Positions 27,886-52,109 of a stretch of DNA of 64,000 nucleotides are shown piece by piece (position 1 is the stretch's first letter; the number at the start of each line of letters is the position of its first letter). The stretch comes from a virus. Its lineage: Duplodnaviria > Caudoviricetes. Under the pieces are notes generated by a model. That model ran no database searches, had not been told where the DNA came from, and worked only from the letters and a program-made list of their open reading frames with translations. The translations under genes were made by a program, and so were the position numbers. The stretch is taken from positions 194,510-258,509 of the IMG/VR virus record IMGVR_UViG_3300033463_000005. One strand, given 5' to 3'.

Positions 27886-28304
27886 CTCGCGATCAATACC
27901 GCCAAAACGGACGTGAATTTTTCGATATTATAATATCGAATAAACGGGAAGTCGAATTGTGTAATCGACGGACACCGATTCAGAATCATCAATGGTCGCC
28001 ACATGTTTGTGAGACCATAACGATCATATGCACATAGCTTCGGATTTCGTGTGTATTTCGGATCAAACTTTTCGACTGTATACATATCTGGATAGGATTC
28101 CAGTATACGATAGAATTTCAAAGGAAGATACGAAATCACGACATCCCACGTATGTTCATTCAATGTATCATCAACCAACAATTGTTCTTCCCGAGATAAT
28201 CTCACGGAGGTGGAAATATTTTCCAATGTGAAGAGATCGGATCTGATGTATGCAAGCAATGAGGGCAGCAATGTTTTTTCATCAGAGGTCATTGGATCTC
28301 TCAT
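27870..28304 (-). CDS. baseplate wedge-like (T4 gp53/LysM-like) protein
   Basis: YTRNPKLCAYDRYGLTNMWRPLMILN resembles the gp53-family motif RPxxxAYxxYGxxxxWxxxxxxN. Confidence 0.6.
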   Translation of the reverse strand: MRDPMTSDEKTLLPSLLAYIRSDLFTLENISTSVRLSREEQLLVDDTLNEHTWDVVISYLPLKFYRILESYPDMYTVEKFDPKYTRNPKLCAYDRYGLTNMWRPLMILNRCPSITQFDFPFIRYYNIEKFTSVLAVLIARCQQQ

Positions 28305-28319
28305 CTCCTCTCATGAAAT

Positions 28320-28604
28320 TTATTGTACACGGACATACATTTGAAAGATGTCATTATCATCACAGACCAGCGTCGCTTTGTAATCACCATTTGGATTTTG
28401 AATCATTCGAGATTCATTTAGAATTCGAATCGGAAGTTTGAATAACTCCGTTAACTCAATGGATCCAGATTGATAATTAACAGAAGAGAACACTGGGGAT
28501 ACAATCTCAATGATATCACCATCTTTGATTGTATCCCGTGTACGTATGATACATGTTGATGTATGAGGGATGGAAATCGTCATATCACGATTTTGTAGTA
28601 ACAT
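28320..28604 (-). CDS. hypothetical protein
   Basis: packed ORF. Confidence 0.62.
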   Translation of the reverse strand: MLLQNRDMTISIPHTSTCIIRTRDTIKDGDIIEIVSPVFSSVNYQSGSIELTELFKLPIRILNESRMIQNPNGDYKATLVCDDNDIFQMYVRVQ

Positions 28605-28632
28605 GGTTCATCTCATCCCTTTCTTTCATACA

Positions 28633-29769
28633 TTACTCGGCTGCACCTTCACCATCATCGGCAATGCCTTCGGACTGACCGGTTGCAATCTTGCCGAGTG
28701 CAGAGACAGCATCAGAGAATGCCTTGACAACTGCATCAGCGGTGTTTGAGACATCGCTTGCCCAGGTCTTGACATTGTCGTTGATCTTCTGGAACTTCGC
28801 GGAGATCTTCTTCTGAGTACCAGCCTTAGACTGACCATGACGGACCTCTTCAGCAGTACAGAGAGACTTGATGAAGTTCTCGGCACCAGCCTTCTTGGTC
28901 TTGGAAGCAGCCTTAACGATACCAGCAGAAACCTGCTGTGCAACGTAGGTGTAGGTGATGAGCTCAGCAATATCCTCAGCGTCAGCGTTCTTGGTTGTGG
29001 AGATGCCCTTAACAGCCGGGAAGGAAGAACCCTTCAGAAGCTGCTTGTAGAGCGCATTCACATCCGGAACACCACCCTGATCGAAGCCAGTCTTCGGATC
29101 ATTTGCAGCATACTTATCAGATGCGAAGAAGCCCTTCAGCATCTTGACAAAGCTCTGATCGAAAGACAGAACTTCCTGGACAGTTGGATCCTCAATGCAA
29201 TCACCAATGCCCATGCCGAAGACAGAAGCGAGACGAGCCATGCAGTTACCATAGCTGAAGATCAGCTTCTCAGCTTCAGATGCAGTCGGGAAGATACCCT
29301 TTGCAAAAGTGATAGCATTCTTGGACTTACGGTTGGTTGCGAAATCACGAACCAGCGCCTGTGCAAGTGGTTTTGCAAATGCGATCATGAAGTTACCAGT
29401 GTTCGCAGCAGAAGCGGAAATACCATACTTCTTGCCGAGACCAATAATAGCCTTCATGTCACGATCAGCAGCAGTTTTCACCTTCTTGGCATTCTCAAGA
29501 ACGACATCGTAGAAACCGATCAGTTCCTGAGCAACAGCCTCTGTTGCGAGACCGACAGCCTTGTCCGGTTCGGTCGGAAGACCTGCTTCCTCAGCCTCGG
29601 TAGCGGCTTCCTGAATAATTGCAGAATTTGCCGGAAGTTCAGCGAGCTTCGCAGCATACTCGAAAATCGCAGAAGAAACGTTAACCTTACCCAGTGCCTC
29701 CTTTGCATGGACATCGTGCATAGAGGCATCACCAGTGTCAAGGTCAAGCATGATTTCAGAAAATTTCAT
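28633..29769 (-). CDS. abundant Ala-rich putative virion protein
   Basis: strong codon bias, IQEA motif near N-terminus, GAAAGG RBS. Confidence 0.72.
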   Translation of the reverse strand: MKFSEIMLDLDTGDASMHDVHAKEALGKVNVSSAIFEYAAKLAELPANSAIIQEAATEAEEAGLPTEPDKAVGLATEAVAQELIGFYDVVLENAKKVKTAADRDMKAIIGLGKKYGISASAANTGNFMIAFAKPLAQALVRDFATNRKSKNAITFAKGIFPTASEAEKLIFSYGNCMARLASVFGMGIGDCIEDPTVQEVLSFDQSFVKMLKGFFASDKYAANDPKTGFDQGGVPDVNALYKQLLKGSSFPAVKGISTTKNADAEDIAELITYTYVAQQVSAGIVKAASKTKKAGAENFIKSLCTAEEVRHGQSKAGTQKKISAKFQKINDNVKTWASDVSNTADAVVKAFSDAVSALGKIATGQSEGIADDGEGAAE

Positions 29770-35599: not shown

Positions 35600-37294
35600 A
35601 TGAGCAGAATTTCAAAAGAAGTGTCCGAACGACAAAAGACATTTGGTAATGAAATGCCGGATCTGAAAATCGTTCGAAACTTTATGAATGGGATTTCATA
35701 TAAACTCGATCCCATTCAGACCCTGAAGATGATTGCCGCTTCATCCATCTTCGGTGAACCTTCCTACTATCGGGAAGGTGGTCTGAAAGAGAAGAAAATC
35801 ACATTTAAAACAGAGGAAAAGTGTGATATCAAACCTCTGTTCAAAGATATGATTCTCAATAAGACTACCACAGAGGTATTTGAAGAAGCAATTGATGCAG
35901 CACTGGAGTATGACTTCGGTGCAACAATTCAACTTGCAATTGAATTGCGTGAGAAGTATCTCATGCGGTTGAATCCGCAAGTCATCATGGTTCGTGCCGC
36001 AATCCATCCTAGTAGAAAGGAATGGACAAAACACCATAAAGGTGAATTCATCACGGCAAACAACCGCGTGATGAAACGTGGTGATGAACCAGCAACCCAA
36101 CTGGCGTATTTTATCTATGTTACCGGATCGAAAGCCAATATGCCATCGATTCTGAAACGGTCGTTGGCTGCAAGACTCGGAACATTGACAAAATACGAAG
36201 TCAACAAGTATAAGAATTCCGAAATGGGTATGATTAATACCGTGCGTATTGTTCATGCAAATTCGGATGTTCTGAACGAGTTGATGGAGACAGGTTCCGT
36301 GTCAGTTGGCACGGAAGAAAAAACGTGGGAGAATCTTCTCTCGGATGGAATGTCATGGAAAGACCTAGCATTGCAGGTATATGCCGGTAATATTAAACTC
36401 CCTGCAATGGCATTGATCAGAAACCTTCGAAATATCTTTATGGCATTTGCTGCAGATAATTCGGTAAAACCCGAAGTATATCAGTTTTTCCATGATAAAC
36501 TCATCAAAGATGTCCCGTATGCCAGACAGTTCCCGTTCCGATACAAATCGGCATATAATGCGATTGAATCTTCGCCATTACCAATTGCAATCAAGTATCC
36601 GTTACTGGATACATTGTCGCAGTGCGTGGATTTATCAATTGATAATATGCCGCATTTGATGGGAACAACCGTTTGCTTGACGGATAATTCGGGTTCTGCA
36701 TGGGGCGGCTTCACCTCGGAATTCGGATCAGTTTGTGTTGCAAACATTGATAACCTTTCATCTGTGATTGCCGCAAAAGCATCCGATGCAGGTATGGTTG
36801 TGAAGTTCGGTGATAACTTCATCGAATATCCAATCTCCCGTCGTGATTCGGTTTTGACACAGGTTAAACCGATTGATGCCCGCGGTAGTTCTGATGTGGG
36901 TGGTTCCACGGAAGGTGGAATCTGGAAGTTCATGAAGAAAGCGATTACCGAAAAGATTCATTTCGATAATCTGTTTATCTTCTCCGATCAGCAAGCCGGT
37001 ACAGGCGGGTTGTATGGAACTTCCGAAGATATGTACGAATACTGCCAGAAAGGATACAATGTCCGTAGCAGAATGATTGATGTATTCGCACTCATCAATG
37101 CATATCGCAAGGCGGTCAATCCAAGACTGAATGTATTCTCGGTCCAGACTGCTGGATATAATAACCTTGTTATTCCGACCATGACATATCGGACAGCTAT
37201 GCTCACGGGTTGGACTGGTAAGGAGGTTTCATTCGCTGCTGAGTACATCAGACAGTGGGATGCAATCGAAATGAAATCTGGCAATAATATGTGA
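35600..37294 (+). CDS. Ro60/TROVE domain RNA-binding protein (Rsr-like)
   Basis: N-terminal NFMNGISY...FGEPSYY, TWE..LS, ALIRNLRNI, QFPFRY..AY TROVE motifs; vWA MIDAS DNSGS and IFSDQQ; C-terminal GW. Confidence 0.92.
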   Translation: MSRISKEVSERQKTFGNEMPDLKIVRNFMNGISYKLDPIQTLKMIAASSIFGEPSYYREGGLKEKKITFKTEEKCDIKPLFKDMILNKTTTEVFEEAIDAALEYDFGATIQLAIELREKYLMRLNPQVIMVRAAIHPSRKEWTKHHKGEFITANNRVMKRGDEPATQLAYFIYVTGSKANMPSILKRSLAARLGTLTKYEVNKYKNSEMGMINTVRIVHANSDVLNELMETGSVSVGTEEKTWENLLSDGMSWKDLALQVYAGNIKLPAMALIRNLRNIFMAFAADNSVKPEVYQFFHDKLIKDVPYARQFPFRYKSAYNAIESSPLPIAIKYPLLDTLSQCVDLSIDNMPHLMGTTVCLTDNSGSAWGGFTSEFGSVCVANIDNLSSVIAAKASDAGMVVKFGDNFIEYPISRRDSVLTQVKPIDARGSSDVGGSTEGGIWKFMKKAITEKIHFDNLFIFSDQQAGTGGLYGTSEDMYEYCQKGYNVRSRMIDVFALINAYRKAVNPRLNVFSVQTAGYNNLVIPTMTYRTAMLTGWTGKEVSFAAEYIRQWDAIEMKSGNNM

Positions 37295-37312
37295 TTTTCA
37301 CATCACATATGT

Positions 37313-37402
37313 ATAGTTGCGATGCGGTGTAATCGGTTACTTCGCCATTTGTTCTAAAAATGATACGAGATCATATACCGGTTATGATATTCTCGCAACT
37401 AT
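37313..37402 (+). ncRNA. candidate Y-like RNA (Ro60-associated module copy 1)
   Basis: terminal stem ATAGTTGCGA/TCGCAACTAT, GATGCGG-helix-TACTTC ... helix-ATATTCTC; starts 19 nt after the Ro60 stop. Confidence 0.65.
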
Positions 37403-37406
37403 CATC

Positions 37407-37492
37407 GTATCAATATTATGATGCAGCCGCATGGGTTACTTCACCTGCATAAATGAATAATACCTGTGTATTTATTCTCATAATGTTGATAC
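37407..37492 (+). ncRNA. candidate Y-like RNA (module copy 2)
   Basis: terminal stem GTATCAATATTATGA/TCATAATGTTGATAC with GATGCAG..TACTTC..TATTCTC. Confidence 0.65.
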
Positions 37493-37570: not shown

Positions 37571-37674
37571 CTAACTGATGCATGGCATAGATGTTTGCTC
37601 CAAGCATCTATCATCAGTTATCGCGGAATGTATATATGCGGGCATTGCGCCCGCATATATACTATTTCCTTTTG

Positions 37675-38835
37675 CCATGTGTAATGTAATTGTATAGATT
37701 GGAGTGTGTAGTATGAGTTGTGGTGAAGCAGAGTACTGTGAAACCTAGTCGTGTGATGGCATAGTGCATTCACGTTCGTTTTGTTCAGGTGGAGTGGGGT
37801 ATGGTAAAGCATGGTTGTGTGCAGGCATGTGCTAGTGCAGCAGGGTCGTGTTCTACTATGTTCAGGTGAAGCATGGTTATGTTCGGCTACGTTTAGGCGA
37901 AGCAGGGTCTTGTTTCATTGCGTTACGGTGAAGCAAGATGCTGTTCGGCTATGTGGTGGCAAAAGCAAGGCAGTGTCCTATTATGTTCGGGCGGAGCTAG
38001 TCATGTTCTATTACGTCTAGTCCTGGTATGGTTAAGTGGGGAGCTGTACATTGATGGTTTGATCAAGTGATATGCGGTGAAGCATTGGCAACGTGGAGTG
38101 ACGTGGAGAACTGTCTCGTCACGGCGTGCGCTATAACGTATGGTGACGGCAAAGCAACGTAGTGCGCGTCCATGCGACGGTTTAGTACCGAGCAGCCTAC
38201 CTATGTAATGGAACTGTCGAGTCGTGTCACGCAGAGTTCAGTATTTGTGGGGGACTGTACAGTTGAGAAAGGCAATGTTCTGGCAGGGAACGGTCAGGTA
38301 GTATTGTGTTTAGGTGGAGTAAGGTCGCGTTTTGTTTAGGCGGAGTAGCGTGAAGTTCAGTACAGTTCTGGAAACGTAACGTGACGTAACAAAGCGTCTG
38401 GAACATTGATGCAACGGTTCGGTGCCGTAGTGGTGGTTTGTGCTGTGTCGCTATTGTGTTGTCCTGCGAGGGAACGTGGGGGCAGCGTTCGGTTGTGCCC
38501 CGTATCGCAAAGGCAAGGCACGGTAGTGCGCATCCTATGTGTAGGTGGAGTCTCGTTGCGAGAGGCAACGCTTTGTTATGGTTTGGCTTAGCCACATATT
38601 ATTTCGATACAGTATGGGTTTAATCTGGAGCTGTGATGGAACGGCACTGTTTAGCAAGGCAGTGTCAGGGTTATCCTATGCGTTGTAGAACCAAGCGATG
38701 GAAATGTTATGGTCAGTGTACTGCCGTAACGTCGTGGTATTGTGAGGTAGCGTCATGTAATGCTTAGGCAACGCCGTGTAACACAATGTCACGTCCCATT
38801 TCGTCATGGAACCGCGCTGTACACACAGTATGGCA
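37675..38835 (+). repeat. non-coding pentamer-periodic array 1 (NN-xRY units, ~31-nt super-repeat GGYRAAGC)
   Basis: GGYRA(A)AGC-like anchors at 37865, 37896, 37927, 37958, 37990 (31,31,31,32 nt apart) separated by pentamers such as ATGGT TATGT TCGGC TACGT; G/T-rich, no credible ORF. Confidence 0.85.
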
Positions 38836-39673: not shown

Positions 39674-39809
39674 GGAGGATTAGCTCAGTTGGTAGAGCAC
39701 GAAACATAACTCGTTGCGTTATTCTCGGGACCCAAAGTGCCCGATGCAGTGTGATGAGTTACTTCGCATATGGCGCGCGTGGTCGTAGGTTCGAGTCCTA
39801 CATCCTCCG
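39674..39809 (+). ncRNA. tRNA scaffold carrying permuted Y-like module (copy 5)
   Basis: GGAGGAT/ATCCTCC acceptor, canonical D arm TAGCTCAGTTGGTAGAGC, T arm GTAGG-TTCGAGT-CCTAC; insert AACTCGTTGCG-TTATTCTCGGG..CCCGATGCAG-TGTGATGAGTT-ACTTC. Confidence 0.75.
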
Positions 39810-40330: not shown

Positions 40331-40334
40331 TCGG

Positions 40335-40429
40335 GGTGTATTAGCTCAGTGGGTAGAGCGCCAGTTCGTGGTTAGTGACTATGTCCTCATGAACTGTAGA
40401 GGTCGCGGGTTCGAGCCCCGTATACACTC
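40335..40429 (+). ncRNA. tRNA-like RNA with expanded anticodon arm
   Basis: GGTGTAT/ATACACT acceptor, canonical D and T arms, 9-bp CAGTTCGTG/CATGAACTG stem with 17-nt loop. Confidence 0.62.
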
Positions 40430-40434
40430 TTTAT

Positions 40435-40514
40435 TCCCGCATAGCTCAGACGGTAAAGAGCATAGCGAGCGGCCGTTAACCGCTAGGTCGTAGGTTCAAG
40501 TCCTACTGCGGGAA
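40435..40514 (+). tRNA. atypical tRNA-Asn(GTT) (insertion after D arm, C33)
   Basis: same acceptor and T arm as the 39911 tRNA; AGCGG-CCGTTAA-CCGCT; ~6 extra nt between D and anticodon stems. Confidence 0.62.
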
Positions 40515-40527
40515 CCGTTTCAATTAG

Positions 40528-40642: not shown

Positions 40643-41545
40643 ATGTCAAAACCGCATAATGAAAAGAGAGTTGAATTTGTATCAGCTCGCATCAAAGATC
40701 TGCAGGATACAATTGCGGCACTGCAGAAAATTCTTGACAATCCTGACATAGGCGAAAAACGAGTAGTTGAAGAACTCGGGTTAGACTTTGCGAAATATCG
40801 TCGCTTCGTTTATGATCTTACCTGGATAAACAAAGCGACAGTATCCGCAAATGTAACTGATATGAAGCCAATCAAAAACTGTGTAACATGCTGCTGGCAA
40901 GAATTGTTGTGGTTGGATATATGTCGTTGCAACTCGGCTAATATAGCTGTGGCGCCAACAGACACAGTTGAAACGATTGACAACATCATTTCGGAATTGT
41001 CCGAAAGAGAGCAATTGGTTATACATATGCGATTCGAGGAAGGTTTGTTCCTCGATGAATGTGCTAAAAGGATTGGTGTAACTCGCGGACGTGCTGGTGA
41101 GATTTTGAAACGGGCAGAGACGAGAATCAAATACAAGTATGACAGACTCAGACTTGGCGATGGTAAATATGGAACCATCATCGGAATGCAACGCCGATTG
41201 GAAGACGATCTCGAGATCAAAATAAAAAGAGAGATCATCGAGAAGTTGGACTGCAGAATCGAATCTCTTGCAGCCCTAATAAAGGATGCGTATAATACTA
41301 TAAATGGCGCTGAAGAAAAACAAAAAGAATCGACTTCCTATGTGAGACTATTGCGTTATACCCCGCTTGAAAATCTGGAATTATCGGTAAGATCATATAA
41401 TTGTCTGAAGCGAGCGGGATACAAATGTCTCAATGATTTCTGTGACAAAACTCTCACCGATATTAAGAAAATAAGGAACATTGGTAGGAAATCATACGAA
41501 GAGATTGTTGAGAAGCTCACAGAAGTGGGCATATGTTTGGAATGA
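40643..41545 (+). CDS. sigma-70 region-4 HTH fused to RNA polymerase alpha-CTD
   Basis: LSEREQLVIHMRF..GLFLDECAKRIGVTRGRAGEI (sigma r4); PLENLELSVRSYNCLKRAG...KIRNIGRKSYEEI (alphaCTD). Confidence 0.85.
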   Translation: MSKPHNEKRVEFVSARIKDLQDTIAALQKILDNPDIGEKRVVEELGLDFAKYRRFVYDLTWINKATVSANVTDMKPIKNCVTCCWQELLWLDICRCNSANIAVAPTDTVETIDNIISELSEREQLVIHMRFEEGLFLDECAKRIGVTRGRAGEILKRAETRIKYKYDRLRLGDGKYGTIIGMQRRLEDDLEIKIKREIIEKLDCRIESLAALIKDAYNTINGAEEKQKESTSYVRLLRYTPLENLELSVRSYNCLKRAGYKCLNDFCDKTLTDIKKIRNIGRKSYEEIVEKLTEVGICLE

Positions 41546-43319: not shown

Positions 43320-45953
43320 ATGGAAACTTCTCTTGATCTTATTGGCGTAGCACTCCGCTTTGTTAAATATGTAGATTTTGCGAATACTTTACATAGATAT
43401 GCAATATTTGAAATTGGTCGCGTTGGTGGCAATATAGAACTAAAAGCACTTGAAAAAGCATACGCATCTCAGTTATGTCAAATACCTGGTGACCTGACGA
43501 ATGGTATCCTACAACAAAAGCAAGTACATGATAACTCTGGATGTTATACGGTGCGCCTTTGTCTGTTCATTGGCAATATTTTGGACGGGGCAGACCTGAT
43601 CGAGAAGGGGAGCGATGCAACGAAAGTAACCATCACTTATGAAACCGGTAATATACGACCATCATTGAAAAGCATTAAACGCATGACCGCCTATGGTAGA
43701 CCGTGGTTTGAACGCTATCCTGTCGACTGGGATGCAACGGAAGAGACGGAAGCGTTCAAGAATAAACTCGAGGTACTTGCACACCTGTTCGAAGATTTTC
43801 CTCATGCAACAAGGTGTGCAAATATAACTCATAAAAACACTCTGGCGTTTCTTGCAGTACGGCTCGGCCATATTGTCTTTGACATTGGCCGAGGGCGATT
43901 CGTCACAATTGTCCAACAAAAACACGAACCTGAATTGCTAGACCTGATTCTTACTGACACATCAGTGAATCAAGTCTGGATTTTGAACCAGGTATCTTCA
44001 ATTGTTGAAGATGAAAAACCCTGGTGGTGGAGTTCAGGATTCCCATATGTCAGGGGTGAAGACATTTTGTCAGAAATTGCCGCATTGCAGATAGACATCG
44101 TAACATTTCTGGCAGAGCGCAAAGACCGCTATCAGAAACTTGCGGCTCATATTCTGGAAAATCATGAGGATTCTACGTCTGCTGACACAACAAAGACAGA
44201 GGAGGAAAATGCAATGAATTCCGAAAAAATCGAGTTCCCGGAAAGTGCCCCGAAGAAATGGGTGTCACTGTATGGTGATCTCCACGAACTTTTCTCAACG
44301 TGGTGTCGAAAGCGTGGAGCGACACTGGAAGAATTTGTGTGCTCACATGGCGGTTTTCCGGATTATCCACAAGGCATTTATTTCAATATATTGAGGAAAT
44401 TCTCCTCAGAGTCAAAAGATAAATTAAGGTTCACAGTTCATTATGACGATACGTTTAAAACTGTCGCAATCAGATTCTTTGCATACAACATTGAGTCTTT
44501 TCACGTAACCACTCCGAAAGAACGGCTTCAGATCAGAAGTATCACATTTTGTGAACCTATATTCAAAAGCTTTATTGGAGATAAACCCTCCGAGCATCAG
44601 ATTTATTGTTCACAAACAAATGGGGACCCAGAAAGCAAAACCAGTGCTGACTGGAAACCGGTTGACGTCATTCGGGAATATTTCGGTAAAGAATTTCTCG
44701 ATAAGATTGGTGAAATCTTTGCGAAATATGTTCCGAAGGAGACAGCCATCTTCGAACCCGGGATTATTCTGAAATGGGAACTCTGTTCGGAATACAAGTT
44801 CTTCAATGAACTTCGGACGGAGATCGACAGATACTTCAAACGCTGGTTTTCGGAAGATGTATCTGTGTCACAAATCATTTTCTCTGAAAACAAGGTTGCA
44901 TGGGAAATCCAAATGACCGATGATAGAAAATATCGGGCAGAGTTGACACATGACACAAATCGCAATACTGCGATTTGTGTCCATGACGATATACTGAGAT
45001 TCTTCAAACAGGGAACTGGATTCGTAGAAAGAAAACTCGCTATGTATGAGCTTGACTATGAATTCGGTGAAAGTTTCTATCACGGAATAAAACGTATCTA
45101 TGAATATATCCGTATGCAGGTATTAAACATTGTCAACGCAGAAACACAGAAATCGACATTGCCGAAATTGGCATTGTCAGAAGAAGAACCCTATATCTTG
45201 CCGAAAGAAGAATTCAAAAAGATAACCGAGGATCTTAAGAAACTCGCTGAATCAACATCTAAGGAGGAAAAGAAAATGAATGAAAAGAAGGAATTTAACG
45301 CATTCGGAGAAGTTCTGAAAAGACTTGCCGAAAGATTGACAACGGAGACACAGGAATCAAAAACTGATGATCCGATATTCCCGCATTTCTCAACATCCAA
45401 GGACGGAGTGAAACTTGTGACTATACCGTGGGATGTTTATCGTAATATGACGAACACTCAGTATGGTATGACCACTACAATAGTGAAAGATCGCGCTTCA
45501 ATGATAATGAATGCGTTCTGGAATCCTAAAACCGGTGTCGCAACTATTCTCTGGGCGGATGGTTCGAAGACCATGTCAAAGCCCATGGAAGGAACCACTC
45601 CGGATCCGGAAATCGGATTTGCCATCTGCATTGCAAAGAAGATAATGGGTGGAACCCAGAATAAATGGAGAAAGTGGTTGAAGAGCACCATCGAAGCATC
45701 TACAGCTTCCGCCAAGAAGAAAAGTGACAAGAGTCGTATCAAGCTGGAGAAACAGGCTCGTGCACGTCTTGATGCTCAGCAGATCACAGAACCGTCTGAT
45801 GTTCAACTTACAGAAATGATTGAGACAATCATCAAAGAAAATGCAACACGAAACAGACCAAATGTTTCTGTTAAGTTCATTGACCATTCGTATGACGTAC
45901 TTGATAAGCCGGCTCCTAAAAAGAGACCCGGCAGAAAGAAGAAAACCAACTAA
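43320..45953 (+). CDS. large hypothetical protein with conserved C-terminal phage domain
   Basis: 877-aa ORF; ATILWADGSKT...DPEIGFAICIAKK domain. Confidence 0.8.
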   Translation: METSLDLIGVALRFVKYVDFANTLHRYAIFEIGRVGGNIELKALEKAYASQLCQIPGDLTNGILQQKQVHDNSGCYTVRLCLFIGNILDGADLIEKGSDATKVTITYETGNIRPSLKSIKRMTAYGRPWFERYPVDWDATEETEAFKNKLEVLAHLFEDFPHATRCANITHKNTLAFLAVRLGHIVFDIGRGRFVTIVQQKHEPELLDLILTDTSVNQVWILNQVSSIVEDEKPWWWSSGFPYVRGEDILSEIAALQIDIVTFLAERKDRYQKLAAHILENHEDSTSADTTKTEEENAMNSEKIEFPESAPKKWVSLYGDLHELFSTWCRKRGATLEEFVCSHGGFPDYPQGIYFNILRKFSSESKDKLRFTVHYDDTFKTVAIRFFAYNIESFHVTTPKERLQIRSITFCEPIFKSFIGDKPSEHQIYCSQTNGDPESKTSADWKPVDVIREYFGKEFLDKIGEIFAKYVPKETAIFEPGIILKWELCSEYKFFNELRTEIDRYFKRWFSEDVSVSQIIFSENKVAWEIQMTDDRKYRAELTHDTNRNTAICVHDDILRFFKQGTGFVERKLAMYELDYEFGESFYHGIKRIYEYIRMQVLNIVNAETQKSTLPKLALSEEEPYILPKEEFKKITEDLKKLAESTSKEEKKMNEKKEFNAFGEVLKRLAERLTTETQESKTDDPIFPHFSTSKDGVKLVTIPWDVYRNMTNTQYGMTTTIVKDRASMIMNAFWNPKTGVATILWADGSKTMSKPMEGTTPDPEIGFAICIAKKIMGGTQNKWRKWLKSTIEASTASAKKKSDKSRIKLEKQARARLDAQQITEPSDVQLTEMIETIIKENATRNRPNVSVKFIDHSYDVLDKPAPKKRPGRKKKTN

Positions 45954-46271: not shown

Positions 46272-47099
46272 ATGGCAGCGAAGAAAGCAACTACTGAGAC
46301 AACTGCAACCACCGAGAAGAAGGGCGTGCTCAAGACATATGAACTGCCCGTTCACATCACATTCATGGAAGGTGTTCTGGGTACACTTCCGAACGACAAA
46401 GAGATTCTCAACAGCTTCATTACGTCGAAATCGGCAGATGCGGTTTCCCGCACGGATGAAATCGAAGCAGTCGGTATCGAAGAAGTTATTGAGAAGGGAA
46501 AGACGGTATTTCCGCGTGATGCGGAAGGCAGACCCTTCATCTATGACTATCAGTTGAAGGGGTTCTTCAAAGAGAAGTGCTCCTTCTTGAAGAACATCAA
46601 CGGAACAGAGTCGGCGAAGATGACGGCGTTTAAGAAGAAGATTGATGGTCTCTTCTTCATCAAAGACCGCCGGAATCCGATCACAATCACTGACGGTCTG
46701 AGCATTGAATCCTGCCAGAGACCGCTGCGTGCAGAAACCGCACAGGGTCCGAGAGTTTCTCTTGCGAATTCGGAAGAGATTCCTGTCGGATCTGAATGCG
46801 ATTTCACGGTTCTTGTCTTTGACAAATCCCATATTGATATTGTCAAAGAATGGCTGGAGTACGGTATCGTACACGGCACGGGTCAGTGGAGAAATTCCGG
46901 TAAGGGACGTTTCATCTGCGAATTCGGCGAAGTCTCCGAAGGCGAAATGACCTATGCCGAGCACATTAAGCGTGCAAAGGCGGCCATCAAAGCCGAAGTT
47001 GCCCAGAAGATTCTGGAGCAGCAGGAAAAAGAAGCCGAGAAGAAACGTCAGCGGGAAGCTGCTGAAGCAGAAAAGGCCGCAAAGAATGCCGGTAAATAA
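46272..47099 (+). CDS. stand-alone RAMP/Cas7-like RNA-binding protein
   Basis: beta1-Gly VHITFMEGVLG; PFIYDYQLKGFFKE (Cas7/Csm3 P.I....LKG motif); thumb QRPLRAETAQGPRVSL; EEIPVGSECDFTV; Gly-rich loop YGIVHGTGQWRNSGKGRF; AGGAG RBS; strong codon bias. Confidence 0.82.
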   Translation: MAAKKATTETTATTEKKGVLKTYELPVHITFMEGVLGTLPNDKEILNSFITSKSADAVSRTDEIEAVGIEEVIEKGKTVFPRDAEGRPFIYDYQLKGFFKEKCSFLKNINGTESAKMTAFKKKIDGLFFIKDRRNPITITDGLSIESCQRPLRAETAQGPRVSLANSEEIPVGSECDFTVLVFDKSHIDIVKEWLEYGIVHGTGQWRNSGKGRFICEFGEVSEGEMTYAEHIKRAKAAIKAEVAQKILEQQEKEAEKKRQREAAEAEKAAKNAGK

Positions 47100-47177: not shown

Positions 47178-49418
47178 ATGCCCGATAAAAATGATTGTTT
47201 TTCTTCGGTTATGAAAGAAATAAACAACCCATACAAAGCATGTGTGGATAAAATCTACACAATGATCGAGGACACAATTTGGTTGTCTTTAAACCGGGAG
47301 AAAGCACTGTATTCAATGTACTACCCTGATGAAACATCAACTGGTAGAAAGACTGAATTTACCATGAGAAAGAGTGATAAACAATTCGGTCTATATCGGA
47401 CAAATGATTATGTCGCTGGCATAATCGATGTATGGAATGGAAGTAAGGTTCATATTCCATACACGTATACCGTAAAACCGGATGACCATATTTCCATCCA
47501 AAGATGGAACACATATGATCATGAAAATGGCATTTCAAAATGCCACATTCAGTGTTTAATCAATGATGTGAATGCCAAATTATTGGAGCATTTCAGTAAA
47601 TTGTTGATTAAACCTGCACGGTGTACAACATTCGATGATGTATGGAATACAGTCATTTCATATATCAGTAAGTATTGTTCGCGGTCGATCACATGGATGA
47701 AACTGGAATCGACCAAGAATGACGAACGTACCCGAATCACAATTTCGGAACAGTATCGGAATGTTGACAAGCACATTGATGTCATGACAATCAGTGTCAT
47801 TGATCGAGATCTGCTTATGACAATTCCGGCTGTTGAAGTTGTCAGCACATATGGAGCAGAATATTACAAACAGATTCTGCAGTTTGCTGGTCAACTATCT
47901 CGGATTCTTTGTGACTGTCAAGATGAAGGGATTATCAAGAAACCGGATGCCGACATCAATATGACGATGGGGATAATTCGGATGTGTTGTGTGGTGCCTG
48001 GATGTAGCTGGATTACGATCACACAAAATCCAAAACTTGCAATTGTAAAATGTGGCGGTGTCGAAATGCTTCGACACGATATAATTGATAGGGACAATAT
48101 TATCACAACAATCACAGAAGAAGCATTTTGCGATGAAATACATCTTGGAACGGTATATCGGTTGATCAATCATTTGATATGTTCATTTGGATATACTCAT
48201 ATTAAATTTGACATGTCCACTGTCAACTATCAAAAGATATATGAGTTCATTCATACGTATTTATATCAGCATCTATCGAATTCCGATCTTTGCAAGTATT
48301 GTGCAGTATGTGATACGGATATGTCTACAATTATATTTGATGAACGTGATATTCCAAAAAAGGAATTATTGCGAATCCAATATACAGATATCGGATTGAA
48401 ACTGATTCTTTGTTCGGATTTAAAAACACCTCTCCGAGTAAATACAAATTGGAAGATCAAACACATACTTCCAATTTTGAGAGAATTCTGGGAATATTCC
48501 AAATATCCAGAACCAGTTGTCACCAGTGAAGAAATCGGTTATCCCGATGATATAACGGAGGAAAAGAAAATGAAAACTACAATCACAAAGGAATTCATGC
48601 AAAAAGAATTCCTGAAACTGTGCGGAATTATTCAGAATGAAATTCAACCGATATTGAATGATGTCGCCCTGCTGGGTGGCGATTGGGCTAATGCTGGTAC
48701 TGCGGGATTGATGTGTTGGAGTGTGTATCATGCCGCGTCGTATCGGAATCGGAATATCGGTGCCCGCCTATTAAATGATGATACTTTGGCAGTGTGGAGT
48801 GGTGAAAAACACAACCATGTCATAGAAATCAGATTTTCAACAGACTATACACATGGCTTTTATATTCGGATTGATGATCTGAAACGTCATCAAATGCATG
48901 AACCGATCACTGCTAATTTCTTCGAGACTTTATATGACAAATGCATTAATGCGTTTGACGACGATCTGTGGGAAGAAATTGGTTATCCAAATGATATAAA
49001 GCCTGATATTGATGAATCCGATGACATGTATAAACTATGGCAGTACTTCGGTAAGACCTATTTACGTGATCCAAAACTAAAAACATTTCTTCCATATGCA
49101 CCATCCTTTGAAAATGTAGATCGTCTGGTATTCAATGGACCGGCGACAATTGTCTATTGGAAGGATGGCACAATGACAGTTGTCAAAGCTACAAAGGGTG
49201 AGACAATTGATCCCGAAAAGGGATTCGCAATGGCAGCACTCAAGAAGGTAAATGGCAATACTGCCAATTACATGAGAAAGCTGTCAAAGCTTTTTAAGAA
49301 AGCAGAAATCATCGAACCCACAAGGAAGAAGAAGGCCAAGAAGAAGAACACCGATATTGTAACAACTGCCAAAACACCGAAGAAAACAACCAAGCAGAAG
49401 GTTGAGCCAAAAGGGTGA
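47178..49418 (+). CDS. large hypothetical protein with conserved C-terminal phage domain
   Basis: 746-aa ORF; FNGPATIVYWKDGTMTVVK...DPEKGFAMAALKK domain; internal repeat EEIGYP(D/N)DI. Confidence 0.8.
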   Translation: MPDKNDCFSSVMKEINNPYKACVDKIYTMIEDTIWLSLNREKALYSMYYPDETSTGRKTEFTMRKSDKQFGLYRTNDYVAGIIDVWNGSKVHIPYTYTVKPDDHISIQRWNTYDHENGISKCHIQCLINDVNAKLLEHFSKLLIKPARCTTFDDVWNTVISYISKYCSRSITWMKLESTKNDERTRITISEQYRNVDKHIDVMTISVIDRDLLMTIPAVEVVSTYGAEYYKQILQFAGQLSRILCDCQDEGIIKKPDADINMTMGIIRMCCVVPGCSWITITQNPKLAIVKCGGVEMLRHDIIDRDNIITTITEEAFCDEIHLGTVYRLINHLICSFGYTHIKFDMSTVNYQKIYEFIHTYLYQHLSNSDLCKYCAVCDTDMSTIIFDERDIPKKELLRIQYTDIGLKLILCSDLKTPLRVNTNWKIKHILPILREFWEYSKYPEPVVTSEEIGYPDDITEEKKMKTTITKEFMQKEFLKLCGIIQNEIQPILNDVALLGGDWANAGTAGLMCWSVYHAASYRNRNIGARLLNDDTLAVWSGEKHNHVIEIRFSTDYTHGFYIRIDDLKRHQMHEPITANFFETLYDKCINAFDDDLWEEIGYPNDIKPDIDESDDMYKLWQYFGKTYLRDPKLKTFLPYAPSFENVDRLVFNGPATIVYWKDGTMTVVKATKGETIDPEKGFAMAALKKVNGNTANYMRKLSKLFKKAEIIEPTRKKKAKKKNTDIVTTAKTPKKTTKQKVEPKG

Positions 49419-49479
49419 ACGAACCAATATTTTAGAAGAGTTTCAAAATGGGTGCCATATGGCACCCATTCTCTTCGTT

Positions 49480-50590
49480 GTAAAGTATAAGTATTGGTCT
49501 TGTATGAATCTGTGCTGATATGTACTGGTAGAGTAGGGTTATGTGGCGAGGTGTAGATGATTCGTCGTGTAACGTCTAGGTTTGGTATGCCATGATCATG
49601 TCATCCGCGTCCAGGTACGGTCAGGCTTCACATGTTAACGTGATACAATGCATCGGTGAAGTCCTGTAATGTTTAGCTGTGATGATTGTAATGGATTCGT
49701 CATGCAACGCCAAGGCAAAGTGTTATGATGATTAGTGACAGACGGTGTCGGTGAAGTGCGGCGAGGAAGCGTATGATTTCGCATGGGTTTGACAAGGTGG
49801 AGGAATGTGGAACAACGCGTTGGTTTTGTTTGGTTTAGTAATGCAAAGGCAACGTGGGGCTGGGTTTGGTTTGATTCGGTTTGGTAACGGCCTAGATAGG
49901 TTATGTCTCGTATGTCGGTGTTCCGGTGCAGTCCAGCAGAGCAGTGTCAGCACTGTCCTGGTATCGTGTGGCAACTCGAAGTTACGATATGATTCGCGAT
50001 TGTAAGGCAAGGTATGATGATGCTTTGGCAAAGAGAAGCGATGTCGGATCTCGTGGGGTTTTGTGCCGGTGAGGCGTCGTTTAGTTTCACACCGTGTCGG
50101 TACTGAAAAGTTAGACTATGTAGCGGCATAGTCATACGATGTTTGGGCTGTGTTTATCAGTGTGCTGGTTCTGCAAAGTAAAGTGGTGTCCTGTATGGTG
50201 TTGGTGATGTGCAGAATAGTGATGTTTCGGCGTTGTAAGGCTGTGCGGAACATCGTGTTGGTACAGTGTCGAAGGCTTGTGTTGTGTCGGTGTGGTGTTG
50301 TGACATCTCATATCGTAGCGTGGGGTATGGTGTATCCTAGTTTGTATAGGCACCGTACTCTCCCGTTTCATACCGCGAAGTTATGTGATGGCGCCGTAAT
50401 GTCAAACTACGTGGCGTCCGGTCCTGGCAAAGCTCACTCTTGTGCAGTAAAGGTTTGGCACTGTCATATTGAGTGCTGTGCTGGCAACGTACCATTCTGC
50501 ATCATATCGTGTTGGTATGGTGACGATGCGTTGCGTACAGTTGCACAAGGTTACGCCGAGGTAAATCATGGCCTAATTATGCAATGACCG
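49480..50590 (+). repeat. non-coding pentamer-periodic array 2
   Basis: e.g. 49856-49885 GGGGC TGGGT TTGGT TTGAT TCGGT TTGGT; 50287-50331 TCGGT GTGGT GTTGT GACAT CTCAT ATCGT AGCGT GGGGT ATGGT; GGYRAAGY-like anchors. Confidence 0.82.
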
Positions 50591-50646
50591 CAAACCAACA
50601 AAATATTTCGCAGAGTATCACAACTATAAGATACTCTGCGAAATAT

Positions 50647-50728
50647 GTCTGCATGGCGAAATTGGCAGACGCGTAGGATTTAGGTTCCTATGTCGAAAGA
50701 CGTCTCGGTTCAAATCCGAGTGCAGACA
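50647..50728 (+). tRNA. tRNA-Leu(TAG)
   Basis: GTCTGCA/TGCAGAC acceptor, TAGGA-TTTAGGT-TCCTA, long variable arm. Confidence 0.9.
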
Positions 50729-50735
50729 CTCATAT

Positions 50736-50782: not shown

Positions 50783-51328
50783 GTGAATAATTATGATGAT
50801 ACAAATTTATATGCAATTTTTGATGCATTTATGAAATATGGTGATTTTTATCCACATGAGATACCAGGATTTCCTGGCTATTATATCAATAGATTTGGAA
50901 TTATGTTTGATAAAAATAGAAATGAAATTGAACCATACCAATATCCAAATCAATATAAAATGGTATATTTAACTGATCAATACGGGAATCATCGTGTTTT
51001 TGGAATCCATCAACTTGTTGCAATGACATTTGATCCAGATTGGTTTCCAGGTTGTATTGTCCATCATATAGATGGAAACAAATACAACAATAATGATTGG
51101 AATTTAGAATGTATGAGTCGTGCACAACATACATCAATGCATAATCCATTACGTTATATTGATAAAATCGAGACATGTGATATTTGTGGTAAAAAATTTA
51201 TATGGAAAGCAAGCACTCAACAATATTATTATTCCGATATAAAGCGTGGTGTTCATCGTATTAAAACATGCTCACCAAGTTGTCAGTCATATGCTGGTCG
51301 AATGACACAACTAGGTCGAGCATATTAA
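50783..51328 (+). CDS. HNH homing endonuclease (NUMOD4-HNH)
   Basis: IPGFPGYYINRFG, IHQLVAMTF, VHHIDGNKYNNNDWNLE, C-terminal Zn motif. Confidence 0.9.
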   Translation: MNNYDDTNLYAIFDAFMKYGDFYPHEIPGFPGYYINRFGIMFDKNRNEIEPYQYPNQYKMVYLTDQYGNHRVFGIHQLVAMTFDPDWFPGCIVHHIDGNKYNNNDWNLECMSRAQHTSMHNPLRYIDKIETCDICGKKFIWKASTQQYYYSDIKRGVHRIKTCSPSCQSYAGRMTQLGRAY

Positions 51329-51632: not shown

Positions 51633-52109
51633 ATGAATAATTTAGACACAAACGTGACCGGATTACTAACAGAAATGCAAGTTCAACGAGAATTCATAAA
51701 ACGCGGTTTTGGAGTTTCTGTTCCATTAAACCCATCTGAGCGATATGACTTAATCGTTGACGCATTTGGTGGATTATTCAAAGTCCAAGTAAAAACAGCA
51801 ATTGATCTCGAATCAGATGATGGTTTTATGATATATACATCATCTGTTCACAAAAAACATGGTGTGTGGGACAGAAAATGTTATGACGAAAATGAGGTTG
51901 ATTTGTTTGCAACCGTACATAATGACACTGTTTACGTTATCCCATATCCCGATGCCGGAACAATGTCACAGATAACACTTAGAACAAAACCAACCAAAAA
52001 TGGTCAAGAGATTAATATTCATTATGCTGATCACTATGAATTGGATAACGTAATAGGCAGATGGAATAATTTAACTGATTCTAATAAGCAACAACTGCTT
52101 ATTGAATAA
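51633..52109 (+). CDS. PD-(D/E)XK homing-type endonuclease
   Basis: G..TE...FIKRG..VSVP....RYDLIVD......VQVKT...Y...EVDLFA pattern. Confidence 0.85.
   Translation: MNNLDTNVTGLLTEMQVQREFIKRGFGVSVPLNPSERYDLIVDAFGGLFKVQVKTAIDLESDDGFMIYTSSVHKKHGVWDRKCYDENEVDLFATVHNDTVYVIPYPDAGTMSQITLRTKPTKNGQEINIHYADHYELDNVIGRWNNLTDSNKQQLLIE

What the first reader, a model, noticed from the sequence alone, without database searches (positions are those of the whole stretch)
49480..50590. Array 2: second pentamer array with the same flanking architecture
Seen: the same NN-xRY code (GGGGC TGGGT TTGGT TTGAT TCGGT TTGGT at 49856-49885; nine consecutive RY-ending pentamers at 50287-50331) and GGYRAAGY-like anchors. 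By eye it shares no long identical stretch with array 1. Like array 1, it starts after a GC palindrome (TGGGTGCC-ATAT-GGCACCCA, ~49449-49468) and ends in a 17-bp hairpin (50603-50646) abutting a tRNA. Inference: the arrays are co-transcribed with tRNA clusters and may use host RNase P/Z cleavage of the neighbouring tRNAs to be released. Two non-identical arrays suggest a diversified repertoire rather than a recent duplication.
Basis: partly seen in the sequence, partly recalled or inferred. Interest (0 to 1): 0.82.

Follow-up and report, generated by a model that had tools for sequence, protein, structure and literature searches.

The report
VIPR guide-RNA array, jumbo phage
The G/T-rich "pentamer array" is real and is most likely a kilobase-long guide-RNA array of a VIPR system (a CRISPR-related phage silencing system described in 2026 preprints); its Cas7-like protein gene lies 2.4 kb upstream, so this is a new example of a known kind, with an unusual 31-base punctuation.

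Summary
Observation confirmed. Bases 49477-50600 form one continuous lattice of about 216 G-Y-N-N-N units. The period is 31/6 = 5.17 nt, not 5: about every sixth unit is a hexamer G-Y-N-N-N-G. Only this tract and array 1 (37680-38830) carry the signal in the 258.5-kb phage genome.

The ORF at 46272-47099 folds as a Cas7/Csm3-type RAMP (Z 13.2) and has a G-loop, GTGQWRNSGKGRF. This matches the VIPR systems of bioRxiv 10.64898/2026.04.26.720920: a lone RAMP protein (Vipr) plus pentamer-repeat guide RNAs, with YNNNG variants mentioned.

Of 80 bacterial-genome loci encoding homologues of this protein, 74 have an adjacent same-strand array. Their median period is 5.150, and the pooled mean unit is 5.1667 nt. 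The published SUSP1 guides, used as a control, give period 5.0.

Arrays 1 and 2 cannot be aligned to each other. Arrays also turn over completely between relatives whose flanks are 87-95% identical.

Not shown: transcription, processing (the tRNA/RNase P idea), the pairing rule and the targets. My gapped-target searches found nothing.

The same grammar was noted earlier in this scan in another jumbo phage (e1-5524881). Verdict: new member of a known kind; the 31/6 punctuation and the continuous kilobase arrays between tRNAs are the parts worth following.

The parts
49447..49470 (+). GC-rich 10-bp hairpin followed by a T-rich tail, directly upstream of array 2. It looks like the terminator of the 746-aa gene, or a 5' boundary of the array transcript.
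   Evidence: Analogous hairpins precede array 1 (37630-37662) and the arrays of L003 and L005.
49477..50600 (+). Array 2: a continuous lattice of about 216 units, G-Y-N-N-N with a G-Y-N-N-N-G hexamer about every sixth unit (period 5.165 nt). Candidate VIPR guide-RNA (vrRNA) array.
   Evidence: Composition is G 31%, T 31%, C 16.5%. No Rfam family matches. No excess folding energy: z = 0.13.
50603..50646 (+). Perfect 17-bp hairpin with a 10-nt loop, closing array 2 and abutting the tRNA.
   Evidence: Read directly: the arms ATATTTCGCAGAGTATC and GATACTCTGCGAAATAT are exact reverse complements.
50647..50729 (+). tRNA-Leu(tag), first gene of the downstream tRNA cluster. Its 5' end would define the array's 3' end if RNase P cuts there (inference only).
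46272..47099 (+). Candidate vipr gene: a 275-aa lone Cas7/Csm3-like RAMP with the G-loop GTGQWRNSGKGRF, a long beta-hairpin (146-170) as candidate thumb, and a C-terminal Lys/Glu/Ala-rich helix.
   Evidence: AF2 model, pLDDT 80.8. Foldseek finds Csm3 and type VII Cas7 at E about 4e-8. VIA-align gives Z 13.2 to Csm3 and 12.9 to Cmr4. The family has 3,428 homologues, mostly 197-210 aa, with no Pfam domain. The G-loop aligns with that of SUSP1 Vipr.
47178..49418 (+). 746-aa gene between vipr and array 2, function unknown. It is a possible accessory gene by position only.
   Evidence: No Pfam hit and a weak PHROG 'tail protein' hit. It is not homologous to the gene at the same position in L051. 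It shares a 48-aa C-terminal module with the 877-aa gene upstream of vipr.
37680..38830 (+). Array 1: the sister array with the same grammar (period 5.150), lying between tRNA-Leu(caa) and tRNA-Pro(tgg).
   Evidence: Syntenic arrays occur in L003, L004, L005 and L051.

Best explanation
Array 2, like array 1, is a guide-RNA (vrRNA) array of a phage VIPR system whose protein, a small Cas7-like RAMP (Vipr), is encoded at 46272-47099 on the same strand.

The published mechanism, taken by analogy, runs as follows. The array is transcribed, and Vipr protomers polymerise along it, one per repeat. Each protomer clamps the constant bases (here G-Y) and exposes the variable bases. The variable bases pair discontinuously with DNA of a competing mobile element and silence it.

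Shown here: the lattice itself; the RAMP fold and G-loop of the neighbouring protein; the clade-wide co-occurrence of homologues of this protein with same-strand arrays of the same 31/6 grammar; and the hypervariability of the arrays.

Inferred: transcription, Vipr binding, DNA targeting and any processing.

This clade departs from the characterised type II systems in three ways. It has one constant G instead of GG, leaving three variable bases. It has an extra G about every sixth repeat (31 nt per six repeats). Its arrays run for hundreds of bases, over 1.1 kb here, without tails.

I suggest, as inference, that the extra G is tied to the six-protomer helical turn reported for the Vipr-vrRNA filament, or that it marks the junction between abutting short guides.
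For: (1) The lattice is real and confined to two tracts of the genome.

(2) The ORF at 46272-47099 is a Cas7-type RAMP. Foldseek E is about 4e-8 to Csm3 and type VII Cas7, and Z is 13.2/12.9/12.5 over residues 19-228. It has the G-loop GTGQWRNSGKGRF. None of the eight neighbouring ORFs scanned matches a cas family.

(3) Published VIPR systems consist of a lone RAMP plus RNAs of tandem pentamers with constant GGY and variable NN, encoded mainly by phages. The Methods list the variants NNNGG, YNNNG and NNNNG, and array architectures vary (10.64898/2026.04.26.720920).

(4) Co-occurrence. 74 of 80 genome loci with a homologue have an adjacent array with G>C on the vipr strand, median period 5.150. 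All 7 Vipr-positive loci among L001-L059 have arrays. The 47 TROVE-bearing loci with no Vipr hit show no array signal.

(5) Clade grammar. 3,851 units have a mean length of 5.1667 nt. The sixth base of hexamers is G in 563 of 608. Runs of pentamers between hexamers peak at 5.

(6) Control. The known SUSP1 vrRNAs are picked up by the same scan at period 4.93-5.0.

(7) The hhalign alignment to SUSP1 Vipr is colinear over 170 columns. It pairs GVGDWR with GTGQWR: W178/R179, which hold G2 and Y3, are kept, while D177 and H17, which hold G1, become Q205 and T38. That fits a repeat that has lost the first G (with residue roles from 10.64898/2026.04.26.720927).

(8) The arrays are hypervariable between relatives whose flanks are 87-95% identical.
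Against: Sequence homology to a published Vipr is weak: hhalign probability is 10% with E 0.003, and the profile finds nothing in the SUSP1 genome.

No target was found. None of the nine gapped pairing rules tried beat shuffled controls in a 1.6-1.7 Mb local database. Two exact 10-unit patterns from array 2 had no hit in IMG/VR.

The array lacks the roughly 100-nt unit and conserved 3' tail or pseudoknot of characterised vrRNAs. In this phage the arrays are separated from vipr by 2.4 kb and 7.4 kb and by terminator-like hairpins. No conserved accessory (vap) gene was identified.
Confidence: 0.85

Rival explanations
1. The arrays are transcribed and bind Vipr-type proteins, but they act as decoys or sponges rather than as this phage's own guides. 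They could titrate or redirect the Vipr of rival phages, as satellites do with solo vrRNAs, or buffer the phage's own Vipr.
For: Orphan and redirecting vrRNAs are documented (10.64898/2026.10.15.759431). The arrays here lie far from vipr and are very long. No target was found.
Against: The phage carries its own vipr on the same strand. In 74 of 80 relatives the array lies within about 3 kb of vipr, mostly directly flanking it. Hypervariability of the N positions fits guides better than a generic sponge.
Confidence: 0.07
2. The tract works as DNA, not RNA. It would be a phased protein-binding or structural array, since 31 bp is three turns of B-DNA, for example for a nucleoid or packaging protein or for replication.
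For: 31/6 = 5.17 nt is half of 10.33 bp. There is no excess RNA folding energy.
Against: There is strong strand asymmetry (G 31% against C 16.5%) and all units are direct repeats. There is no 10.3-nt Fourier component. The array is always on the vipr strand, with G skew positive in 99% of 88 segments. In L122, the one prophage array read base by base, the lattice starts at the vipr stop codon like a 3' extension of its mRNA.
Confidence: 0.04
3. It is a decaying tandem repeat with no function, or an unrecognised coding region.
For: TRF finds a local 31-nt tandem unit in array 1. Long spurious ORFs occur in the tract, for example 50150-50587.
Against: The lattice is conserved while the sequence is not, both across relatives and across a clade of dozens of genomes. 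There is no 3-nt periodicity peak. Neutral decay would erase a 31/6 lattice.
Confidence: 0.02

Closest known systems
VIPR systems with alternative repeats (YNNNG, NNNNG) and 'staggered' vrRNA arrays (bioRxiv 10.64898/2026.04.26.720920, Methods and fig. S17-S18 legends)
   Same: A lone RAMP protein outside any CRISPR locus. An adjacent same-strand array of 5-nt units with one or two constant bases and variable bases. Phage or prophage encoded. [quoted passage not shown]
   Different: I could read only the text and legends, not the figures or data tables. So I cannot tell whether the GG hexamer every sixth unit (31/6), the continuous 0.4-1.2 kb length or this gut clade are described there. The words hexa-, jumbo and tRNA do not occur in the main text.
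Type II VIPR of Escherichia phage SUSP1 (KT454805.2: vipr 28474-29061, vrRNAs 27500-28030 and 29061-29511, minus strand)
   Same: A Cas7-like protein with a GxG[D/Q]WR G-loop. G/T-rich pentamer repeats on the gene's strand. Variable bases interleaved with constant ones.
   Different: SUSP1 has a strict 5.0-nt period, NN-GGY units, 12-16 repeats per RNA, and its own promoter and hairpin/pseudoknot tail for each roughly 100-nt RNA. Here there is a single constant G plus Y, three variable bases, an extra G about every sixth unit, more than 200 repeats without tails, and a 275-aa protein with an added C-terminal helix.
Class 1 CRISPR Cas7 backbone filaments (Csm3, Cmr4, Cascade Cas7)
   Same: The protein fold (Z 10-13). 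The principle of one protomer per short RNA segment, with a thumb that flips bases at a fixed interval.
   Different: CRISPR uses a 6-nt interval on a contiguous spacer flanked by repeats, together with Cas5, Cas6, Cas10 or Cas8 partners and an adaptation module. None of these is present here.
Earlier scan finding e1-5524881 (another jumbo phage: 'G every 5th base, punctuated by GG-hexamers')
   Same: The same grammar and the same reading (a VIPR guide array with the Cas7-like gene at a distance).
   Different: It is a different genome. I did not examine it, so the link rests on its note only.

Membership tests
VIPR (Vipr + vrRNA) | Lone RAMP protein (RRM core, glycine-rich loop, thumb) with structural similarity to Cas5/6/7 at Z of 6 or more, not in a CRISPR locus | tested here: met
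   Z is 13.2 to Csm3, 12.9 to Cmr4 and 12.5 to type VII Cas7. Foldseek E is about 4e-8. The G-loop is GTGQWRNSGKGRF and there is a beta-hairpin at 146-170. None of the eight neighbouring ORFs scanned matches a cas family, and Rfam lists only tRNAs.
VIPR (Vipr + vrRNA) | Sequence homology to published Vipr proteins (X1U2U4 family; SUSP1 Vipr) | tested here: inconclusive
   hhalign of the 55-sequence profile against SUSP1 Vipr is colinear over 170 columns and E is 0.003, but probability is only 10%; the G-loop motifs align. The profile finds no hit in the SUSP1 genome. X1U2U4 was not available to me.
VIPR (Vipr + vrRNA) | Tandem pentanucleotide repeats with constant GGY (or a related consensus) alternating with hypervariable bases, on the vipr strand | tested here: met
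   The lattice is G (0.89), Y (0.94), N-N-N, of the YNNNG type named in the paper's Methods. It is hypervariable between relatives. It lies on the same strand as vipr here and in 99% of 88 array segments of the clade. Deviation: about 16% of units are hexamers.
VIPR (Vipr + vrRNA) | Discrete vrRNAs of about 100 nt with 9-16 repeats and a conserved structured 3' tail (type II architecture) | tested here: not met
   The lattice is continuous for about 216 units, with no tail-length interruption. The same holds in prophage L122. SUSP1 shows the tail clearly. The paper allows other architectures, so this excludes type II-like organisation, not VIPR membership.
VIPR (Vipr + vrRNA) | Arrays physically associated with vipr | tested here: met
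   Array 2 starts 2.4 kb downstream of vipr and array 1 ends 7.4 kb upstream. In 74 of 80 genome loci the array lies within about 3 kb of vipr, mostly directly flanking it.
VIPR (Vipr + vrRNA) | Accessory vap gene with a predicted DNA-interacting function next to vipr | tested here: inconclusive
   The downstream 746-aa gene has no Pfam domain. It is not homologous to the 226-aa gene at that position in L051.
VIPR (Vipr + vrRNA) | vrRNAs are expressed and co-purify with Vipr | not testable with these tools
VIPR (Vipr + vrRNA) | Variable bases match natural DNA targets under a gapped (1-nt skip) rule, typically in rival mobile elements | tested here: inconclusive
   None of the nine gapped rules tried beats shuffled unit order in 1.6-1.7 Mb of held sequence. 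Two exact 20-base gapped patterns gave 0 hits in IMG/VR. The databases searched may simply lack the targets.
CRISPR-Cas (class 1) | Repeat-spacer array plus a multi-gene cas operon (Cas5/Cas6/large subunit, Cas1-Cas2) | tested here: not met
   There is no repeat-spacer structure. Only one RAMP gene is present, and none of the eight neighbouring ORFs scanned matches a cas family.

The most novel reading that the evidence does not exclude
This large gut-associated Vipr clade uses a distinct grammar that the papers' readable text does not describe. Each protomer would hold one G-Y and present three variable bases, and one extra G would punctuate the RNA every six protomers (31 nt, pooled mean unit 5.1667). 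That equals one helical turn of the published six-protomer Vipr-vrRNA filament. A transcript of 0.4-1.2 kb would then either be coated as one very long filament or be read or cut as abutting 31-nt modules. In the jumbo-phage lineage the arrays have moved into tRNA clusters, so that tRNA processing enzymes would define their ends.
Probability: 0.3. Interest if true: 0.7.

Novelty: new member of a known kind. Interest (0 to 1): 0.45.

Why it matters
VIPR systems are a newly reported class of RNA-guided DNA recognition, proposed to predate CRISPR. Only type II systems have been studied mechanistically in the text I could read.

This locus shows that a jumbo phage of the gut carries about 450 repeat units in two arrays. 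That is far more guide capacity than the 9-16-repeat RNAs studied so far.

Its clade has thousands of homologues in gut Clostridia and Coriobacteriia, and some in Bacteroidales bins. It obeys a precise 31-nt-per-six-repeat rule with a single constant G.

If the rule reflects filament geometry or guide boundaries, it gives a direct handle on two questions. The first is how long arrays without tails are measured or cut. The second is whether three bases per protomer are read.

The residue substitutions at the G1-binding positions (D177 to Q, H17 to T, from a low-confidence alignment) give a testable structural explanation for the altered repeat.

Tried and rejected
1. Known large phage RNAs near tRNAs (GOLLD, ROOL) and every other Rfam family. 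The window at gathering thresholds gave only tRNAs. Array 2 at E up to 10 gave nothing meaningful.

2. DNA similarity to 50,697 phage records: none for either array.

3. A thermodynamically structured RNA. For array 2 (49700-49999) z is +0.13 on the plus strand and +1.37 on the minus strand. For array 1, z is -2.6, largely from local tandem copies.

4. Association with the Ro60/TROVE gene next to array 1. 45 IMG/VR loci and 2 ENA loci with TROVE homologues have no arrays, so the arrays track vipr, not TROVE.

5. Regular 31-nt spacing of the GGYRAAG anchor: this holds only locally, at 37865-37927.

6. Targets. Nine gapped rules were tried against held sequence, including 80 vipr neighbourhoods. 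There was no excess over shuffled unit order, and the small excess for one rule was low-complexity CAA/CGA repeats. Two exact gapped patterns from array 2 in IMG/VR gave 0 hits.

7. The idea that the variable triplets are sense codons. Stop triplets are depleted in arrays 1 and 2 (P = 0.0005 and 0.017). Across 7,848 units, however, the depletion is of TAG, CTA and TAA but not TGA, which is ordinary TA/CTAG avoidance and not a codon signal.

8. A conserved vap gene: not found.

10. A sigma-70-type promoter for array 2: no convincing match. Array 1 has a 9/12 match at 37672-37700.

11. Two script calls failed. The vipr check was redone for loci L001-L059 only.

Full report
**The observation.** The tract is as described. 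The quoted pentamers, the GC palindrome at 49449-49468 and the perfect 17-bp hairpin at 50603-50646 abutting tRNA-Leu(tag) at 50647 are all at the stated coordinates. The region is G/T-rich (G 31%, T 31%, C 16.5%). It contains only short ORFs of the kind expected by chance.

A Fourier analysis gives one dominant peak at 5.17 nt, with power 10.9 against a mean of 0.73, and its harmonic at 2.58 nt. There is no 3-nt or 10-nt peak. G autocorrelation peaks at lags 5, 10, 15/16, 21, 26, 31, 36 and beyond, out past 100 nt. That is the signature of a 31/6 period.

Across the whole 258.5-kb phage genome, of which the window is the last 64 kb, only arrays 1 and 2 carry this signal.

A cyclic Viterbi segmentation resolves array 2 into about 216 units: 181 pentamers, 31 hexamers and 3 others. 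The profile is G (0.89), Y (0.94), N-N-N. Printed out, the lattice is continuous from 49477 to about 50600. Almost every hexamer reads G-Y-N-N-N-G, i.e. an extra G before the next G-Y. Runs of pentamers between hexamers cluster at 4-6.

**What it is not.** Rfam has no match except tRNAs. There is no DNA similarity to deposited phages. The plus-strand RNA is no more stable than shuffled sequence. Arrays 1 and 2 share nothing alignable.

**Relatives.** The TROVE/Ro60 gene next to array 1 gave access to related jumbo phages from gut metagenomes. The closest ones, L003/L004 and L005, have 67% TROVE identity. They carry an array with the same period at the syntenic place between tRNA-Leu(caa) and tRNA-Pro(tgg).

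The array sequence itself cannot be aligned. Between L003 and L005 the flanks are 87-95% identical, and identity stops where the lattice begins. More distant TROVE-bearing phages (47 loci) have no arrays. The arrays are therefore fast-evolving in sequence, conserved in grammar, and not tied to TROVE.

**The literature lead.** A full-text search for periodic pentanucleotide phage RNAs returned bioRxiv 10.64898/2026.04.26.720920. It describes VIPR systems: a small RAMP protein (Vipr), usually an accessory gene (vap), and vrRNAs. The vrRNAs consist of 9-16 YNNGG repeats in which constant GGY alternates with hypervariable NN, followed by a structured tail. The NN bases pair with double-stranded DNA, skipping every third target base, and silence rival phages and satellites.

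The Methods mention variant repeats NNNGG, YNNNG and NNNNG. [quoted passage not shown]

The companion structure paper reports one protomer per repeat and a right-handed filament with six protomers per turn in the RNA-bound state. G1 is read by H17 and D177, G2 by R138 and W178, and Y3 by R179 and a narrow pocket (10.64898/2026.04.26.720927).

**Testing the lead: the protein.** The ORF at 46272-47099 (275 aa, preceded by AGGAGA) ends its core with GTGQWRNSGKGRF. It has 3,428 homologues, mostly 197-210 aa, and no Pfam domain.

An AlphaFold model built on 55 homologues (pLDDT 80.8) matches Csm3, Cmr4 and type VII Cas7 over residues 19-228. Z is 13.2, 12.9 and 12.5, and Foldseek E is about 4e-8.

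I located the published SUSP1 system in KT454805.2. A 195-aa gene at 28474-29061 is flanked by G/T-rich arrays. Profile-sequence alignment of my family to that protein is colinear over 170 columns. It superposes GVGDWR on GTGQWR, but at low confidence (probability 10%, E 0.003). A direct profile search of the SUSP1 genome finds nothing.

In that alignment the residues that hold G2 and Y3 (W, R) are kept, and the two that hold G1 (D177, H17) are replaced by Q205 and T38. This fits a repeat in which only the second G and the pyrimidine are constant. This is an inference from a weak alignment.

**Testing the lead: co-occurrence.**
- A related jumbo phage (L051, Vipr 61-64% identical) has arrays after its TROVE gene, just upstream of vipr, and downstream of vipr plus one gene. 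This is the same layout as here.
- A 45-kb temperate phage (L053) and three deposited faecal phages (L057-L059) have arrays directly beside their 200-aa vipr homologue.
- A scan of one genome per prokaryotic species returned 140 loci with a homologue, of which the best 80 were kept. They come mostly from gut Clostridia (Oscillospiraceae, Ruminococcus, Faecalibacterium, Lachnospiraceae) and Coriobacteriia, with some bins labelled Bacteroidales.
- Of those 80 loci, 74 have an adjacent array. G exceeds C on the vipr strand in 99% of 88 segments. The median period is 5.150 (IQR 5.135-5.165) and the median length about 400 nt.
- Pooling 37 arrays (3,851 units) gives 82.8% pentamers and 15.8% hexamers, with a mean unit of 5.1667 nt. 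The sixth base is G in 563 of 608 hexamers, and pentamer runs peak at five.
- As a control, the SUSP1 vrRNAs give period 4.93-5.0 with the same code, and by eye are strict NN-GGT pentamers followed by a hairpin tail.
- In prophage L122 the lattice starts at the vipr stop codon and runs 730 nt to the next gene without any tail.

**Interpretation.** Array 2 is, with high probability, a vrRNA array of a VIPR system. The grammar of this clade differs from the characterised type II in three ways: one constant G rather than two, an extra G about every sixth unit, and continuous arrays.

The exact 31/6 ratio equals one extra nucleotide per six protomers, and six protomers make one turn of the published binary filament. 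I propose, as inference only, that the extra G either accommodates filament geometry or marks the junction of abutting guides. It may be what the paper calls staggered arrays with 1-nt overlap. I could not see the figures or data tables, so I cannot say whether this is already described. The main text contains no 'hexa', 'jumbo' or 'tRNA'.

**The tRNA idea.** In the jumbo lineage both arrays sit between tRNAs: here, in L003, and in L051, where the second array ends 18 nt before a tRNA-Leu. Prophage members have no tRNAs nearby. tRNA flanking is therefore a lineage feature, compatible with RNase P/Z defining the ends, but it is not needed by the family. It remains untested.

**Targets.** I extracted the variable bases unit by unit and searched held sequence on both strands. 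That sequence comprised the phage genome and all fetched loci, including 80 vipr neighbourhoods, with the arrays masked. I tried nine combinations of informative positions and target step. No rule beat a control with shuffled unit order, and the only excess was low-complexity CAA/CGA matches. Two exact 10-unit gapped patterns from array 2 had no match in IMG/VR. So there is no evidence of self-targeting, and the pairing rule and targets remain open.

An apparent depletion of stop triplets among the variable bases of arrays 1 and 2 dissolved on the larger set into TAG/CTA/TAA avoidance.

**Relation to earlier scan notes.** VIPR systems have been reported many times in this scan. One earlier report (e1-5524881) describes the same 'G every fifth base, GG-hexamer' grammar in another jumbo phage. 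I did not re-examine that genome.

**Verdict.** It is a new member of a known, very recently described kind. The features worth following are the clade-wide 31/6 punctuation, the single-G repeat with matching G-loop substitutions, and the kilobase arrays embedded in tRNA clusters.

Noticed in passing
window 37300-37470 (also L005 1864-2010, L003 11693-11860, L051 541-700): Directly after the TROVE/Ro60 gene (35600-37294) lies a roughly 160-nt non-coding stretch conserved at 78% among four jumbo phages. It has a long closing stem, TAGTTGCGA...TCGCAACTA, and a duplicated GATGC..GGTTACTTC motif. This is a candidate phage Y RNA, the RNA partner of Ro60. Rfam gives no match.
   Followed up: partly
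window 39674-39809 and 40334-40516: Unusual tRNA-like genes. ARAGORN calls two adjacent tRNAs with a 4-base (gtgg) and a 2-base (cg) anticodon. Rfam's tRNA model also matches a 136-nt stretch at 39674-39809 that ARAGORN does not call, possibly an intron-containing or interrupted tRNA.
   Followed up: no
window 40643-41545: A 300-aa protein combines sigma-70 region 4 with a C-terminal domain of the RNA polymerase alpha subunit (Pfam E 9e-22). This is an odd fusion for a phage transcription factor.
   Followed up: no
window 43320-45953 and 47178-49418; L051 5615-9394: The two large genes flanking vipr share a C-terminal module of about 48 aa (W-x-DG-[ST]-x-T...DPE-x-GFA, 50% identity, E 8e-9). 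The same module is 54% identical at the end of the 1,259-aa gene upstream of vipr in L051. Its function is unknown and a link to the VIPR locus is possible.
   Followed up: partly
L001 6092-6768 and L002 5970-6807: In more distant relatives without arrays, the same tRNA-Leu(caa) to tRNA-Pro(tgg) gap holds a different 680-840-nt ORF-free stretch. The two share blocks (for example CCACCGGAGATCGGGAATCATTATACGGCGTTG) and have no Rfam match. This may be another large non-coding RNA occupying the same slot.
   Followed up: no
L003 12240-12876: The array of this relative is split by an inserted small gene with a threonine-rich repeat. The lattice resumes immediately after it.
   Followed up: no
L109 5576-6000: Beside its 5.15-period arrays, this locus has a 425-nt segment with a strong 4.915-nt period (power 19). 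It may be a second kind of repeat array.
   Followed up: no
window 50783-51328 and 51633-52109: An HNH endonuclease gene and a PD-(D/E)XK endonuclease gene are interspersed among the tRNA genes downstream of array 2. L005 has an HNH gene inserted between the Y-RNA-like element and tRNA-Leu. These look like homing endonucleases shuffling this region.
   Followed up: no
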